Below are positions 519-5,016 of a DNA stretch of 13,686 nucleotides, piece after piece. The first letter of the stretch is position 1. The number at the start of each line of letters is the position of its first letter. A program made the position numbers and the translations under genes. The notes under the pieces were generated by a model. It saw nothing but the letters and a program-made list of their open reading frames with translations. It did not search any database and was not told where the DNA came from. Location: UHGV virus genome UHGV-0355549. The stretch is one strand, 5' to 3'. Source of the stretch: a virus.

Positions 519-3500
519 TCAGCTAATCGTGATGCCTGCAGTGGCTTTCTTCATCACCACAACCAGCAAATCGCTGATACTTGCTGTGGGATACCAGTTA
601 TTTACCAGCCATGCTGACACCGAAAACTCCAGTGTCATGTGACCGTGACCGGCAGGCATATCAATAACACCACTGTAAATCAGCGTATTATCCAGCGCGG
701 TACGGTTATAAATTTCAGCACCGTTTTTCCGCACTATCAGACGGCATGAGGAGTAAATATCAGTATGCTCTTTCTCATGTTTAGCGCCGCTGAATGCCAC
801 CGCCGGAATAACAATCTGCCGGTCAAACGGCTGATCGTCATAAACCCTGACGGTAATGGTTCCTGATGGCCACCGCTCCGGTGCACGGGAGTCCCGGGGG
901 AAAGCTTTGCCCACTGTTTTAACGAGATCGCCTTCAATCTGGTTCGCGGACAATTTTCCCAGAACCCGACAGTTCTCGTTAATCGTGACGTTGTTGAGCG
1001 TCCCGGAGTTCGCATTCACGTTACCGCTGATATCGGCATTTTTCGCCGTCAGCCGCCCGTCCGGTGTCAGGGAAAATGCCGGAGGATTACCGCCGCTGGT
1101 AATGGTGGGAGCCGTCAGATATTTCAGGAACACTTCATTCATAAATATCTGATCGCCCTGACCAACAAACATCGGCTTTGTGTTGCCATTCGCAGGATTA
1201 ATCATCGCAATCCTGTCTGCCGCCAGCAGCACCTGACTCTGCATTCCTGCTGGCGTATTCTCAATACCGGCACCGATACCCGCAATATAAAGGCGTCCGT
1301 CCTGCATCTGCTGCAGTTTCACGGCCCACATGCTGTTCAGGTTATTATTTGTATCAACCTGAACTTTCTGTATCTGCTGGATTGCCGCACTCTGATTTTC
1401 CAGTTTTTTATTGACGGTCTGCGTGATTTCATTGCTGACATTCGTAATGGACGTCCTGATTTCAGCCAGGTCCGGCGCAAGCTGACCGTTATCAATCTGC
1501 GTCCACAGCTCCTGGGCCAGATGTGTTTTCCCGATTTCTCCTTTGAAAAAATCCAGGTAACCTTCCGCATCATCGCTCGCCCGACCGACAGCCTCCACGA
1601 ATGCCGATTTGCCAACAGTATTCACACTGCGGATATAAAAATAATAATCATGGCCCGGTTTGATATTGATACTGGCAGCTATCCAGTACAGCGCCGAGCC
1701 AAGATAGCGGGCTGCGGTTTCAACCTGCCTGATATCCGCAATCCGCTTTTCCGAGAACCAGAACTCAAACTGTACCGTCGGGTCATAAACGGCAAGATGC
1801 GGCGTGGCGGTTATCTGAAAATAGCCCGGCGTCAGCTCAATCCGCGACGGTGCTGCCGGTGCGGCAATCCGGAAGGTGGTGGTGGCAGGTTCACCCTGCT
1901 GGCCATAGCTGTTTATCGCCCGCACCGTCAGGGTGTATTCCCCGAGCGGCAGGCCGCTGAAACGGTGCTCCGTGTCTGCGGTGATAGCGGTGGTCACCAG
2001 TCTGGCATCCGTTCCCTTACCACTGGTCAGGCGCAGACTGAAGCGCACACCCTTCACCACCCGCGGCGTGTCCCATTTCGCCTGCGCCAGATACTGGCCG
2101 TCAGCTGCGCTCACCTCCACCGTCAGGTGCTGCACTGCCGGTGGGATGACGCTGTTCAGGGAACCTGACTGCGGCTCAAAGCGGGCACCGTTATCCACGA
2201 TGGCTTCTTTTTCCGGTACGTGCTGCACCGCCGTGATGGCAAAGGTGCCGTCCGTGTTTTCCCGGACGGAGACACAGCGGAACAGGCGACGGCGCAGTGA
2301 CGGCAGGGAGAGTCCCCACACCCCGTATGTCTCCACACCATCAGGCAGGGTACTGACCTGTATCCGGTCCGGCGCGGGGTGTTCGGTGATGTCCACACTC
2401 ACTGGCTTACCGCTGCCGTTAATCAGGTTCACCGTGGCGGCACCGGTCTCCGGAAGTGTCACTTCACGGTCCAGCGTCAGGGTGCGGGTGGCAGCATCAA
2501 TGGACAGGACACGTCCGCCGGTCAGGGTCCCGGCATAGTCGTTATCACAGATTTCAATGATGTCACCGGGTGTGTGCCGCAGCCCCTGAGACCCGAGCGT
2601 GAAATCCACCGTCTGCGTTTCCAGCAGTTCGGTCTTTATCACCCACAGTCCGGCACGGTGGGCCTGACCGCGGCTGGTACAGCCGAACGCGTCCATCTTC
2701 AGCAGGTTGCGTCCGTAGCGCAGTATGGCTTCCGGGTCTTCCACCAGTTCCGTGGAGGTCTGCCAGCCGTTCTGCGGGTCGGTGTAATTCACCTCCACCG
2801 CCGTGTGCCGGTCCTTCAGGGCACTGAAGCTGTAGCGGAATCCCACGCCGTTATCATCCACCACCACATCGCTGTTGGTGTACGGCCACACCACATCCGA
2901 CGGGCGGTCCTGAACGAACGTCAGCGTCTGACCGTTCCATACCGGCATACAGCGCATCGCAGAGCAGAAATCACTGAGAACGTCCCACGCCTTACGCTGT
3001 TGTGCCAGGTACGCATTAAAGGTCATCCGCGGCTCGGTCCCCCCGAAACCATCCGGGACCGTCTGATCGCAGTACTGCCCGATGGCATACAGCGCCCACT
3101 TGTCCACATCCGCCGCCCCCAGACGTTTTCCCATGCCGTAGCGCGGGTGAGTCAGCATGTCCCACAGGCACCAGGCCGGGTTGTTGCTGTATGCCGGTTT
3201 CAGACTGCCGTCCCAGATACCACTGTACGTGCGTTTTTCCGGGTCATAGTTTGACGGCACCTGGATGATACGACCGCGGATATGGTAGTTCACCGTCATC
3301 TGCTGGCCGCCGAACTGCTCCGCATCCACCTGCAGCCCCACAATGGCCGTGTTCGGGTAGCACTGTTTCACATCGATGATTTCGGTGTATGACGACCACA
3401 GCGTCTTATTCTGCAGCTGGTCCGTGGTGCTGTCCGCCGTCTCCCTGACCATCCGGATGTTAAAGGGCCGGGGAGGCAGATTATCCAGAATCACCGAGGC

Positions 3501-3992
3501 CAGGAACTGTGAGGTGGTCTTGCCGTTAATGGTGACGTCCTTTTCTGTCACCCAGTTACCGTTACGCTGTAACTGAATCAGCAGGCGGACGGTTGCCGGG
3601 TTACGGTCACCCTTTGAGGTGGTCTCCACCAGTGACTGCACCCCGAAGGTAACCCGCAGGCGGTCAATGTTCACGGACGTAATGGTGCGCGTCACCGGTT
3701 TTGCCTTCGTCACTTCCACGCCCAGTCCGGTTTCAGCTCCGGAGGACTCAAAGCCTTCCGGTGGTGTCTGCTCCTGCTCCCCGGCACGCCAGACCGCGGT
3801 CACACCGTGTATCACGGGATTACCGTCCGTGTCCGTCAGCGGGGTTTTGTTCACCAGAATACTCTGCAGTCCCTTCACCGGACCTTCTATCGGTCCCTCA
3901 CCAATCGCATCAATCACACTCATCATCTGCGTGGATTTGAGATTATCCTTCGCCTCACGAGGCGTGTGTGCCTTACCGCCACCTTTTCCCAT
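519..3992 (-). CDS. J: Central tail fiber / host specificity protein J (1157 aa)
   Basis: Single long ORF; N-terminus [22 protein letters not shown]... and long collinear stretches (e.g. [82 protein letters not shown]) match lambda gpJ as I recall it; ATG at 3992 preceded by GGAAGG; located between I and lom as in lambda. Confidence 0.97.
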
Positions 3993-4095
3993 ACAGCCTT
4001 CCCCTGAATAAATTAACCGCCACTTGCCATTCCGTACAGAAGTCGGATATCCTTCGCCCGAAAAGCATGAAACACATTTCTGCCATGCTAAAGAG

Positions 4096-4130
4096 AAACC
4101 CCGGTATCAGCAGATACCGGGGTTTTCTTT
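4096..4130. terminator. Perfect 13-bp inverted repeat with 4-nt loop flanked by T-tracts on both strands (possible bidirectional intrinsic terminator or regulator-binding palindrome)
   Basis: AAACCCCGGTATC agca GATACCGGGGTTT (4096..4125) followed by TCTTTC on plus; on the minus strand the same hairpin is followed by CTCTTT. Lies in the non-coding I-J spacer. Confidence 0.45.
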
Positions 4131-4197
4131 CATGCCCACCGATAATCCTGTTGGTTAAAACCGGTAATGGCATAAAAATTCTGAATATCTTCACATT

Positions 4198-4225
4198 TTC
4201 ACACACTGACTGTGGCGCGTATAAT
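4198..4225 (+). promoter_or_regulatory. Sigma70-like promoter candidate (TTCACA -16 bp- TATAAT) with AT-rich upstream region
   Basis: -35 TTCACA at 4198..4203, 16-bp spacer, consensus -10 TATAAT at 4220..4225; AT-rich UP-like sequence upstream (aaaaattctgaatatct); predicted start near G4232. Confidence 0.4.
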
Positions 4226-4231
4226 TTCTCT

Positions 4232-4329
4232 GCGTTAATTTTTTTGTCGTGATATAAGAATAATTCCTTACACTTAATCTTCGTAACTCTCCCGCAGTTC
4301 CTGTCCGCGATCACTGCGGGATTTTTTTA
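4232..4329 (+). ncRNA. Candidate small RNA (about 100 nt) transcribed opposite to the late operon, from the promoter candidate to the intrinsic terminator at 4291..4329
   Basis: Promoter-like element upstream, no credible ORF or RBS inside, AU-rich body, 3' GC-rich hairpin plus U8 tract; an architecture typical of Hfq-type sRNAs. Purely sequence-based prediction. Confidence 0.3.
4291..4329 (+). terminator. Rho-independent terminator (plus strand), convergent with the 3' end of gene I
   Basis: CCCGCAGT (4291..4298) pairs with ACTGCGGG (4313..4320), followed by ATTTTTTTATTCTTTTT; on the minus strand no U-tract follows the hairpin, so it is plus-strand specific. Confidence 0.55.
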
Positions 4330-4335
4330 TTCTTT

Positions 4336-5016
4336 TTACCCCTGCCGCCCGATAACCACGACCTTTCCGCCCCCGCCTTCATCACGGGTGCTGATGTCCT
4401 GGGATATACGGCGGGAGCCAACCAGCATTTCCCCGTAAGGCACCGGCATCGGGTTCCCCTGGGCAATCATGTTATCCAGCGAGGAAAAGTACGTGTTCTG
4501 TCTGCCGTTATCCGTTGCGCGGTAATCCGGTGTTTTTGCCTTCGGGGCCAGCATCTGGGCCACTCCGCCCAGTATCATGCTGGCACCCAGTGAAAACAGC
4601 ATCGTGGTGGCAGAAAAACCACCGGCACTCAGGGCTGTACCCCATAACGCCATCGAGCCTCCGGCCGTGAAGAAAGAGCCCACGATGGCTGCCGCCCCCA
4701 GCACAATCTGCAGTCCACCCTTTCCGGCCCCGGCCAGTCGCGGCACAATGTGGATGACCGTTCCCTCACCCAGCTGTTCGTGAAGACGGGCATACACCGC
4801 CTCCGGTGCCGTGTCATCACCGGCAATACGTATCTGGTACCAGCCTTCGTTCATCTGACGGCGAAAGCCCGGCATCTGCATCGACAGGGCGCGAATGGCT
4901 TCCGCTGCCGTGTTCACATACAGGCTGAGGCGGCGGCCAAATCGTTGCAAATCCCCGTGAAGGCAGATGCGTGCCAGTGGCGGTGACGCCAGACAGAATG
5001 CGTTCGTCGTTGCCAT
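4336..5016 (-). CDS. I: Tail tip assembly protein I (226 aa)
   Basis: ORF MATTNAFCLASPPLARICLHGDLQRFGRRLSLYVNTAAEAIRALSMQMPGFRRQMNEGWYQIRIAGDD... matches lambda gpI (ubiquitin-like N-terminal domain); start overlaps the K 3' end by 103 nt exactly as in lambda; ATG at 5016. Confidence 0.93.
   Translation of the reverse strand: MATTNAFCLASPPLARICLHGDLQRFGRRLSLYVNTAAEAIRALSMQMPGFRRQMNEGWYQIRIAGDDTAPEAVYARLHEQLGEGTVIHIVPRLAGAGKGGLQIVLGAAAIVGSFFTAGGSMALWGTALSAGGFSATTMLFSLGASMILGGVAQMLAPKAKTPDYRATDNGRQNTYFSSLDNMIAQGNPMPVPYGEMLVGSRRISQDISTRDEGGGGKVVVIGRQG

What the first reader, a model, noticed from the sequence alone, without database searches (positions are those of the whole stretch)
4198..4329. 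Candidate antisense-oriented small RNA: near-consensus promoter plus intrinsic terminator on the plus strand
TTCACA-16 bp-TATAAT with an AT-rich upstream region, followed about 65 bp later by an 8-bp GC-rich hairpin and a U8 tract, defines a compact unit of about 100 nt with no ORF. The AU-rich body with a 3' stem-loop and poly-U resembles Hfq-binding sRNAs. It is transcribed convergently to the late operon, so it could act on host mRNAs, on the I-J region of the late transcript, or simply insulate it. Prophage-encoded regulatory sRNAs have been described in pathogenic E. coli lambdoid prophages, but I cannot tell from sequence whether this locus matches a known one.
Basis: inference. Interest (0 to 1): 0.65.

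Follow-up and report, generated by a model that had tools for sequence, protein, structure and literature searches.

The report
PasB-family prophage small RNA gene

Summary
A TTCACA-16-TATAAT promoter (4198-4225) is followed 65 bp later by a 9-bp GC-rich hairpin and a U7 tract (4290-4328), on the + strand. It lies in a 343-bp gap between lambda tail genes I and J, which run on the - strand. No promoter-plus-terminator pair of this kind appeared in 300 shuffles.

The unit is homologous to PasB. PasB is an 83-nt, Hfq-dependent sRNA found by RIL-seq and northern blot in the same I-J gap of EPEC E2348/69 prophage PP6. It is also homologous to EcOnc22/23/24, Hfq-crosslinked RNAs in the I-J gaps of Sakai prophages Sp15, Sp14 and Sp11 (about 85 nt for EcOnc22, destabilised without Hfq).

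The most likely mechanism is a lysogen-expressed, Hfq-dependent, trans-acting base-pairing sRNA. In EPEC, the PasB stretch CUCCUUCACAUUGAUCUUC pairs with ribosome-binding or start regions of RIL-seq partners (napF, caiF, yijD).

The window copy is a divergent allele:
- It is 72% identical to PasB and differs at 5 of 18 seed positions, so its targets probably differ.
- It occurs at 99% identity or more in 613 complete E. coli genome records, and no listed hit carries an annotation there.

PasB function has not been worked out. Side observations are a conserved CRP-like dyad in the promoter and rare tandem cassettes with a swapped body. Interest is low.

The parts
4172..4197 (+). AT-rich upstream promoter element, nearly invariant across alleles. 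It contains the dyad TCTGA-ATATCT-TCACA (4180-4195), which resembles a CRP site.
   Evidence: Alignment of 39 distinct variants from 127 loci: both half-sites are invariant and only the centre of the spacer varies. The left half-site lay outside the retrieval pattern. TGTGA-N6-TCACA with at most 1 mismatch gives 3 matches in the window against 0.42 expected. This is a hypothesis only.
4198..4225 (+). Sigma-70 type promoter: -35 TTCACA (4198-4203), 16-bp spacer, -10 TATAAT (4220-4225).
   Evidence: 11 of 12, best in the window; shuffles. The -10 is kept as NATAAT in all but one of the PasB-type variants; copy B of the L096 tandem array has TATCAT. The -35 is not kept in the Sakai-type allele (TCCGGC).
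4232..4328 (+). Predicted primary transcript of the PasB-family sRNA, about 97 nt. An nhmmer profile built from 12 alleles matches 4232-4327.
   Evidence: 70.9 bits, E = 1e-19, the single copy in the window; alignment with PasB and EcOnc22.
4244..4328 (+). Stretch equivalent to the published 83-nt PasB (5' end estimated from RNA-seq coverage) and to the Hfq CRAC peaks of EcOnc22-24.
   Evidence: The 12-nt difference from the predicted start is unresolved. It could reflect 5' processing or the imprecision of coverage and northern sizing.
4256..4264 (+). Three A-R-N triplets (AAG AAU AAU), conserved as a motif across alleles (EPEC AAC AAA AAC AAC; Sakai AAA AAU AAC). Candidate contact for the distal face of Hfq.
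   Evidence: Read from alignments A2 and A3. The link to Hfq is an inference from the known ARN preference of its distal face (cited in PMC4104026).
4265..4282 (+). Single-stranded candidate seed UCCUUACACUUAAUCUUC. The flanks UCCUU and AAUCUUC match EPEC PasB. The core differs between alleles.
   Evidence: Unpaired in the MFE folds. The homologous EPEC stretch pairs with RIL-seq partners. It matches the EPEC seed at 13 of 18 positions.
4290..4328 (+). Intrinsic terminator: 9-bp stem (4290-4298 / 4313-4321), 14-nt loop, U7 (4322-4328).
   Evidence: The seven core pairs are invariant in 12 diverse alleles, so there is no covariation.
4336..5016 (-). Context: tail assembly protein I gene. Its stop lies 8 bp beyond the sRNA 3' end.
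   Evidence: Pfam Lambda_tail_I, E = 1.8e-16.
519..3992 (-). Context: tip attachment protein J gene. Its start lies 240 bp from the predicted sRNA start.
   Evidence: Pfam J-protein domains, E = 1e-31 to 1e-41.
4097..4124 (.). Second, stronger hairpin in the J-proximal half of the gap (10-bp stem CCCCGGTATC/GATACCGGGG), T-rich on both strands. It lies upstream of the pasB-like promoter and is not part of the sRNA.
   Evidence: fold of 4060-4133: -31.9 kcal/mol, z = -7.3. Its role was not tested.

Best explanation
Window 4198-4328 (+) is a self-contained gene for a PasB-family small RNA carried as a moron between tail genes I and J of a lambdoid prophage.

In the lysogen, host RNA polymerase starts at about 4232 from the TTCACA-16-TATAAT promoter and stops at the hairpin plus U7 (4290-4328). 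The product is 85-97 nt, AU-rich and largely unstructured.

Hfq binds it through the 3' U-tail and probably the ARN triplets. The single-stranded CU-rich stretch just upstream of the terminator (4265-4282) then pairs in trans with host and horizontally acquired mRNAs. Many of these sites lie over the Shine-Dalgarno sequence or the start codon, which would block translation.

What is shown and what is inferred:
- Shown here: the sequence anatomy and the homology.
- Shown by others, for homologues only: expression, size, Hfq dependence and the partner list.
- Inferred: that this allele behaves the same way, the seed position, and that its targets differ from those of EPEC PasB.
For: Anatomy and chance:
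- Searches give the promoter, terminator, fold and absence of an ORF.

Synteny:
- The unit sits in the I-J gap and is convergent with I and J.

Homology to PasB:
- PasB is at NC_011601.1 1466343-1466261 (-), between I and J of PP6, and is 83 nt.
- Its northern probe AATCCCGCAGTGATCGCGGAGCT is the reverse complement of the terminator hairpin.
- The window RNA is 72% identical to it, and an nhmmer profile scores 70.9 bits.

Experimental data on PasB:
- Northern blot confirmed its size and its Hfq-dependent stability.
- In delta-hfq versus wild type, log2 fold change is -6.8 and -2.4 in the two conditions.
- It has 37 RIL-seq interactions and is the second RNA in the chimeras.
- Partners include napF 5'UTR, map, hflX, fabR, caiF and tolC 5'UTR.

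Homology to EcOnc22/23/24:
- These are Hfq CRAC peaks on the convergent strand of the I-J gaps of Sakai Sp15, Sp14 and Sp11. EcOnc22 gives a band of about 85 nt and is destabilised in delta-hfq.
- After the +128 coordinate shift between genome versions, checked with two HnrS copies, the peaks fall exactly on the homologous RNA body.

Conservation:
- 37 distinct PasB-type variants from 127 loci keep the -10, the 5' leader, the ARN block, AAUCUU, the terminator stem and a U-tract of at least 6.

Seed:
- EPEC PasB CUCCUUCACAUUGAUCUUC pairs with the napF SD plus GTG start (16 bp, -26.6 kcal/mol; shuffled seeds -14.0 +/- 2.8).
- It also pairs with map (-24.9), the caiF start (-21.8) and the yijD RBS at the fabR 3' end (-17.3).
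Against: - There are no transcript or Hfq-binding data for this allele or its host strain.
- Rfam has no family that matches. RefSeq shows no feature at this locus in any listed hit.
- The terminator stem is invariant, so there is no covariation support.
- The 5' end is uncertain. Promoter geometry predicts 97 nt, whereas homologues were sized at 83-85 nt.
- PasB function has not been elucidated.
- Three of the seven RIL-seq partners I tested (E2348C_2648, hflX, tolC) gave duplexes no better than shuffled seeds.
- The window allele pairs with the EPEC target sites only at shuffle level, so its targets are unknown.
Confidence: 0.85

Rival explanations
1. The RNA acts mainly in cis as an antisense RNA. 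It is perfectly complementary to the I-J spacer of the late transcript. It could direct cleavage there or uncouple J-lom-stf expression from the upstream tail genes. Alternatively, the abundant late mRNA could sponge the sRNA during lytic growth.
For: The gene is convergent with the late operon and lies wholly inside the I-J spacer. The position is conserved in every homologue examined.
Against: The RNA overlaps neither the I coding sequence (stop at 4336-4338) nor the J ribosome-binding site (start at 3992, 240 nt from the predicted sRNA start). In EPEC the homologue is recovered on Hfq ligated to many unlinked mRNAs. Nothing in the data addresses the late transcript.
Confidence: 0.1
2. The element is only a transcriptional punctuation mark or a fortuitous promoter. 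In this view the hairpin insulates the late operon, and the promoter-like hexamers are chance or non-productive.
For: Promoter-like sites as a class are not enriched in the window: 5 found against 7.2 expected. A site with 11 of 12 matches alone occurs in 8% of shuffles.
Against: On the late-operon strand the hairpin is preceded by A7 and followed by GAGAGTTACG, so it is not a terminator for that strand. The promoter-plus-terminator arrangement never arose in 300 shuffles. It is conserved across divergent alleles. Homologous units give detectable Hfq-bound RNAs.
Confidence: 0.03
3. The unit encodes a very small protein rather than a regulatory RNA.
For: None, beyond the general existence of prophage small proteins.
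Against: No ORF of 20 aa or more starts within 4232-4329. The only in-body start codons are followed by stops after two codons (read). Indels between alleles are not multiples of three.
Confidence: 0.01

Closest known systems
PasB (pathogenicity-associated sRNA B) of EPEC O127:H6 E2348/69, prophage PP6 (Pearl Mizrahi et al. 2021, PMC8550237; distribution study by Zhu, Shabalina and Storz 2026, bioRxiv 10.64898/2026.05.13.724894)
   Same: Same slot (I-J gap) and same orientation (convergent with the tail genes). Same upstream element, -35, -10 and 5' leader GCGUUA plus U-run. Same terminator stem and U7, and the same CU-rich blocks UCCUU and AUCUUC.
   Different: Only 72% identity over the RNA, with a longest shared word of 25 nt. 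The 5' third differs. The core of the RIL-seq-supported seed is CACAUUG in EPEC and ACACUUA here. The loop is 5 nt longer in the multiple alignments. The window allele pairs poorly with the EPEC target sites. A word-size-28 BLAST with a 75% coverage filter, as used for the published census, would probably miss this allele.
EcOnc22 / EcOnc23 / EcOnc24 of EHEC O157:H7 Sakai, prophages Sp15, Sp14 and Sp11 (Tree et al. 2014, PMC4104026, Table S2)
   Same: Same slot and strand, homologous promoter region, body and terminator. They are Hfq-crosslinked in vivo, and EcOnc22 gives a band of about 85 nt and is destabilised in delta-hfq.
   Different: 72% identity to the window RNA. The Sakai allele has a poor -35 (TCCGGC), an AATAAT -10 and a different seed core (AUAACGUUAAUCUUCAUCG). 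The papers I read do not link PasB to EcOnc22-24: the homologue note for PasB in Table S6 is empty, and 'EcOnc' does not occur in the 2026 preprint.
HnrS (EcOnc10-12), a 66-nt prophage sRNA that represses hha (Poudyal et al. 2026, PMC13502914)
   Same: A prophage-encoded, Hfq-associated, short sRNA with an intrinsic terminator, located in the late region. It shares the octamer UAAUCUUC with the window RNA.
   Different: It occupies a different slot, after Rz and before the terminase genes, and has no overall homology. HnrS pairs with hha through CUUCUACC, which the window RNA lacks (and direct reading).
AgvB / AsxR anti-sRNAs (EcOnc01-03; Rfam RF02702, RF02703)
   Same: Short, convergently transcribed, Hfq-binding sRNAs at moron positions of lambdoid prophages.
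   Different: They lie downstream of PR' near stx and the lysis genes, are 51-60 nt long and share their own conserved 3' region. Rfam models give no hit in the window.

Membership tests
PasB / EcOnc22-24 sRNA family (lambdoid I-J gap) | Sequence homology to the reference RNAs across promoter, body and terminator | tested here: met
   Alignments A1 and A2. 72% identity to PasB and to EcOnc22. A profile of 12 alleles hits 4232-4327 at 70.9 bits, E = 1e-19. The PasB northern probe matches 20 of 23 nt.
PasB / EcOnc22-24 sRNA family (lambdoid I-J gap) | Location between tail genes I and J, transcribed convergently to them | tested here: met
   I at 4336-5016 (-), J at 519-3992 (-), both with Pfam support. 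The arrangement is the same in E2348/69, Sakai Sp11/14/15 and O157 PPompW.
PasB / EcOnc22-24 sRNA family (lambdoid I-J gap) | 3' intrinsic terminator with a poly-U tail that serves as the Hfq proximal-face site | tested here: met
   9-bp stem plus U7 at 4290-4328. The stem is identical to the family consensus.
PasB / EcOnc22-24 sRNA family (lambdoid I-J gap) | Own promoter at a distance that gives an RNA of about 83-98 nt | tested here: met
   An 11 of 12 sigma-70 match, with the predicted start at about 4232. This is a prediction; the 5' end was not measured.
PasB / EcOnc22-24 sRNA family (lambdoid I-J gap) | Same seed as EPEC PasB, which would imply the same targets | tested here: inconclusive
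   13 of 18 seed positions are identical. The conserved flanks are kept and the core differs. EPEC target sites score at shuffle level with the window allele. This bears on functional equivalence, not on homology.
PasB / EcOnc22-24 sRNA family (lambdoid I-J gap) | Expressed in the lysogen, bound by Hfq and stabilised by it | not testable with these tools
   Known only for the EPEC and Sakai alleles.
Any curated Rfam family (including AgvB RF02702, AsxR RF02703, STnc100) | Score at or above the family's gathering threshold | tested here: not met
   0 hits at gathering thresholds in the whole window. In 3950-4400 only sub-threshold chance hits were found, the best being 27.3 bits against a 48-bit cutoff on the other hairpin. 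No match means nothing reached threshold for any Rfam family; whether Rfam holds a PasB model was not checked.
HnrS (EcOnc10-12) | Located between Rz and the terminase genes; 66-nt sequence with CCCAAUCAGUACAUU (anti-mazF) and CUUCUACC (anti-hha) | tested here: not met
   HnrS was located in Sakai Sp9 and Sp12. It is in a different slot and only the octamer UAAUCUUC is shared.

The most novel reading that the evidence does not exclude
The I-J gap may host a modular, duplicable sRNA cassette. Its control region (with a conserved CRP-like dyad), 5' leader and terminator stay fixed while the seed mutates or is swapped outright.

Under this reading the window allele is a functionally distinct sibling of PasB. 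It is present at 99% identity or more in 613 complete E. coli genome records, and no listed hit carries an annotation there. It would regulate a different set of host mRNAs, possibly in response to cAMP-CRP.
Probability: 0.25. Interest if true: 0.45.

Novelty: already known. Interest (0 to 1): 0.2.

Why it matters
It matters mostly for bookkeeping and follow-up.

- It ties three things together as one family: PasB (2021), EcOnc22-24 (2014) and an unannotated allele present in hundreds of E. coli genomes. About 31% of complete E. coli genomes carry some version of this I-J insert, and no listed hit carries an annotation for it.
- Because the alleles differ in the seed core, strains that carry the 'same' prophage sRNA may regulate different host genes.
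- The EPEC partners include virulence genes (map, bfpB, espC, cesD2) and core genes (napF, tolC, caiF, fabR/yijD).
- It does not open a new category. Prophage morons that encode Hfq-dependent sRNAs are well established.

Tried and rejected
- Rfam, at gathering thresholds and in permissive mode, gave no family.
- HnrS looked promising: it is 66 nt, lies in the 'late genes' and occurs in Sp9, and my phage hits were PPompW prophages, the name pointing to the ompW site where Sakai Sp9 sits. Its Sakai coordinates put it after Rz, not in the I-J gap. A shared octamer UAAUCUUC suggested hha as a common target, but the window RNA lacks CUUCUACC, and full-length duplex scores were not better than shuffles.
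- svsR/co293 sits at the 3' end of cI and is unrelated to this locus.
- My first promoter pattern for the viral scan had one N too few and found nothing. The corrected pattern gave 120 or more loci.
- The genome-contig scan with a 3'-end pattern gave mostly chance hits in unrelated taxa. The real copies were in E. albertii, plus three short contigs in non-Escherichia assemblies whose I and J are 91-99% identical to the window's, which probably reflects contamination or mis-binning.
- Searching paper full text for sequence fragments gave no hits.
- A TSS table from the Sakai dRNA-seq and Term-seq study is not held.
- Scanning the translation-initiation regions of the window's own late genes for pairing with the seed found nothing convincing. 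The best was H, at -19.9 kcal/mol against -14.8 +/- 2.5 for shuffles.
- Covariation could not be assessed because the terminator stem is invariant.

Full report
**Context.** The window is the late (head and tail) region of a lambdoid prophage, read on the - strand. ORF 519-3992 (-) is the tip attachment protein J. ORF 4336-5016 (-) is tail assembly protein I. Pfam supports both: the J domains score E = 1e-31 to 1e-41 and Lambda_tail_I scores 1.8e-16. A RefSeq genome that carries an identical gap shows the usual order from the major capsid protein gene through J, lom and stf, with no feature annotated between I and J. The finding lies in a 343-bp I-J gap (3993-4335).

**Observation.**
- The scan finds TTCACA-16-TATAAT at 4198-4225 on the + strand. 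It matches 11 of 12 positions and is the best site in the window.
- It also finds a terminator-like hairpin near 4304-4320.
- Read directly, the stem is 9 bp (4290-4298 / 4313-4321) with a 14-nt loop, followed by T7 at 4322-4328. The tract is therefore U7, not U8.
- A promoter with 11 of 12 matches or better arises in 23 of 300 dinucleotide shuffles. The promoter-then-terminator arrangement arises in 0 of 300.
- No ORF starts inside the unit.
- The RNA folds into little beyond the terminator (-19.4 kcal/mol, z = -2.3).

**Distribution.**
- The gap sequence occurs in 51 phage records, mostly Stx-converting phages and PPompW prophages. The sub-module 4172-4327, which is exactly promoter plus RNA plus terminator, is conserved on its own in Stx1a and Stx2c phages.
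- It occurs in 1669 of 5426 complete E. coli genomes, and no listed hit is annotated.
- The 97-nt RNA of the window allele is present at 99% identity or more in 613 records.
- Rfam has no matching family.

**Identification.** Literature search led to three candidates.
- svsR lies at the 3' end of cI and is unrelated.
- HnrS (EcOnc10-12) lies after Rz and is not this locus.
- PasB matches. Table S6 of Pearl Mizrahi et al. 2021 gives PasB as 83 nt at NC_011601.1 1466343-1466261 (-), in PP6, with northern probe AATCCCGCAGTGATCGCGGAGCT. Those coordinates lie between I (ends 1466255) and J (starts 1466496), on the opposite strand. The probe is the reverse complement of the terminator hairpin. It is exact in the O157 PPompW allele and matches 20 of 23 nt in the window.
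- The alignment shows shared upstream element, -35, -10, 5' leader, CU-rich blocks, terminator and U7.

**Link to EcOnc22-24.**
- Table S2 of Tree et al. 2014 lists EcOnc22, EcOnc23 and EcOnc24 as homologues of one another in Sp15, Sp14 and Sp11, on the + strand. EcOnc22 gives a band of about 85 nt by northern and is destabilised in delta-hfq.
- All three peaks fall in the I-J gaps of those prophages, and those gaps are homologous to the window's.
- The table uses genome version NC_002695.1. Two HnrS copies, at 1.78 and 2.23 Mb, show a shift of about +128 to version .2.
- With that shift the three Hfq peaks cover ACUUUUUUGAUGCCUGAAAAAUAACUCCAUAACGUUAAUCUUCAUCGUUCUCUCCCGCAG. This is the body of the homologous RNA up to the first terminator arm.
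- The papers I read do not connect PasB with EcOnc22-24.

**What is known about the homologues.**
- PasB size and Hfq-dependent stability were confirmed by northern blot.
- In delta-hfq versus wild type, log2 fold change is -6.8 in DMEM and -2.4 in overnight LB.
- PasB is higher in the non-activating condition (overnight LB) than in DMEM.
- It has 37 RIL-seq interactions, almost always as the second RNA in the chimeras.
- Partners in overnight LB include the prophage gene E2348C_2648 (71 chimeras), napF 5'UTR (70), map (67), the nlpD intergenic region (56), hflX (55), fabR (50), bfpB, raiA 5'UTR, ftsZ, espC, caiF, tolC 5'UTR and others.
- The function of the Pas sRNAs 'has not been elucidated'. 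Only two papers in the library mention PasB.

**Mechanism.** I fetched seven partner regions and looked for pairing.
- The EPEC stretch CUCCUUCACAUUGAUCUUC forms a 16-bp duplex with GGAAGGUCAAUGUGAAG of napF, which covers the SD sequence and the GTG start. The energy is -26.6 kcal/mol, against -14.0 +/- 2.8 for shuffled seeds.
- The same stretch pairs with map (-24.9), with the caiF start codon region (-21.8), and with the yijD ribosome-binding site at the 3' end of fabR (-17.3).
- tolC 5'UTR pairs with the adjacent AUCUUCAUUUGUC.
- E2348C_2648 and hflX gave nothing better than shuffles.
- This places the working seed just upstream of the terminator, as the 2026 preprint proposed from conservation alone. 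It also suggests that ribosome-binding-site occlusion is a common mode of action.
- Immediately 5' of the seed, every allele has three or four A-R-N triplets (window 4256-4264, AAG AAU AAU). These are the kind of motif that binds the distal face of Hfq. That link is an inference.

**The window allele.**
- It is 72% identical to PasB and to EcOnc22, and its longest shared word with PasB is 25 nt.
- The published census used word size 28 and more than 75% coverage, so it probably missed this allele and the Sakai one.
- The seed flanks (UCCUU, AAUCUUC) are kept, but the core is ACACUUA instead of CACAUUG.
- On the EPEC target sites the window allele scores -9 to -17 kcal/mol, which is at shuffle level.
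- I infer that it is expressed and Hfq-bound like its relatives. Its promoter is better than that of the Sakai allele, which is expressed. I also infer that it has a partly or wholly different target set.

**Conservation.**
- A promoter-region pattern retrieved 120 or more viral contigs. 127 loci gave 39 distinct 205-bp variants.
- Among the 37 PasB-type variants, these features are invariant or nearly so: the -10 (NATAAT), the CTGCGTTA leader, the U-run, the ARN block, UCC, AATCTT, the stem CCCGCAG/CTGCGGG and a U-tract of at least 6.
- The stem never varies, so covariation is uninformative.
- Outside E. coli, genuine copies were seen in E. albertii. Three short contigs in unrelated assemblies look like contamination.

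**Rivals.**
- A cis-antisense role on the late I-J transcript cannot be excluded and may coexist with the trans role. However, the RNA overlaps neither the I coding sequence nor the J ribosome-binding site, and the homologue clearly contacts unlinked mRNAs.
- A pure insulator role is unlikely, because the hairpin has no T-tract on the late-operon strand.
- A coding role is excluded by the sequence.

**Verdict.** The element is an allele of a known, experimentally detected prophage sRNA family whose physiological role is still open. Interest is low. The modest new points are:
- the PasB to EcOnc22-24 link;
- the seed divergence of a very common unannotated allele;
- a conserved CRP-like dyad in the promoter;
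- rare tandem or body-swapped cassettes.

Noticed in passing
window 4180-4195 (+): The dyad TCTGA-ATATCT-TCACA lies in the conserved upstream promoter element. It matches the CRP half-sites TGTGA-N6-TCACA at 9 of 10 positions, with AT-rich flanks. Its centre is about -44.5 from the predicted start, which is 3 bp further than a classical class II site. The half-sites are invariant in 39 variants and in the extra cassettes of L096, while the spacer centre varies (ATATCT, AACTCT, AATTCT, ATTTCT). The Sakai-type allele has no usable -35 yet is expressed, and PasB is higher in overnight LB than in DMEM. Both fit an activator such as cAMP-CRP. This is untested, and the pattern alone is weak evidence: 3 matches in the window against 0.42 expected.
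   Followed up: partly
L096 8163-8883 (IMGVR_UViG_3300029741_000087); also L045: The I-J gap here is 721 bp and holds three tandem promoter-sRNA-terminator cassettes on the strand opposite I and J. Two are PasB-like. The third, next to J, has the same promoter and the same GCGUUACAG plus U-run leader, but an unrelated body and a different terminator (UCUCCCGU...ACGGGAGA plus U7). Only 2 of about 125 phage loci show this. It suggests the cassette can duplicate and exchange its body.
   Followed up: partly
window 4024-4133 (+), hairpin 4097-4124: The J-proximal half of the gap carries a very stable hairpin with a 10-bp stem. The fold of 4060-4133 gives -31.9 kcal/mol, z = -7.3. T-rich tails follow on both strands (+ TTTTCTTTC, - TTTCTCTTT). 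On the + strand it is preceded by a weak promoter-like site, TTGCCA-18-TATCCT, at 4024-4053 (9 of 12). It could be a second + strand RNA of about 70 nt, antisense to the J leader, or a terminator that shields the sRNA promoter. Sakai and EPEC have an unrelated hairpin (ACAGGCACCC...GGGTGCCTGT) at the same place, T-rich only on the late-operon strand. The only Rfam hits are sub-threshold.
   Followed up: partly
L004 4343-4403, L005 4272-4333, L006 4323-4382 (Sakai Sp15, Sp14, Sp11): Coordinates in Tree et al. 2014 Table S2 refer to NC_002695.1. They need about +128 to match NC_002695.2 from at least 1.78 Mb onward, as checked with two HnrS copies. Without the shift the EcOnc22-24 peaks would appear to lie upstream of the promoter.
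   Followed up: yes
L013, L017, L018 (contigs filed under Parendozoicomonas haliclonae, Streptomyces flavalbus and a Clostridiales MAG): Short contigs (460-3442 bp) in non-Escherichia assemblies carry full PasB-type cassettes. In L013 and L017 they are flanked by I and/or J genes 91-99% identical to the window's. This most likely reflects contamination or mis-binning rather than true hosts.
   Followed up: partly
L003 12047-12272 (Sakai Sp9): Sp9 appears to have lost K, I and part of L: a 438-bp 'minor tail protein' gene is followed by a 187-bp gap before J. It still retains a PasB-type cassette in that gap (nhmmer 54.7 bits).
   Followed up: no
window 4232-4328 compared with HnrS (L002 about 3146-3211, - strand): The window RNA and HnrS, an unrelated prophage sRNA, share the octamer UAAUCUUC in their single-stranded regions. 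CU-rich, anti-Shine-Dalgarno-like seeds may be a recurring theme among these prophage sRNAs. The specific hha pairing of HnrS is not conserved here.
   Followed up: partly
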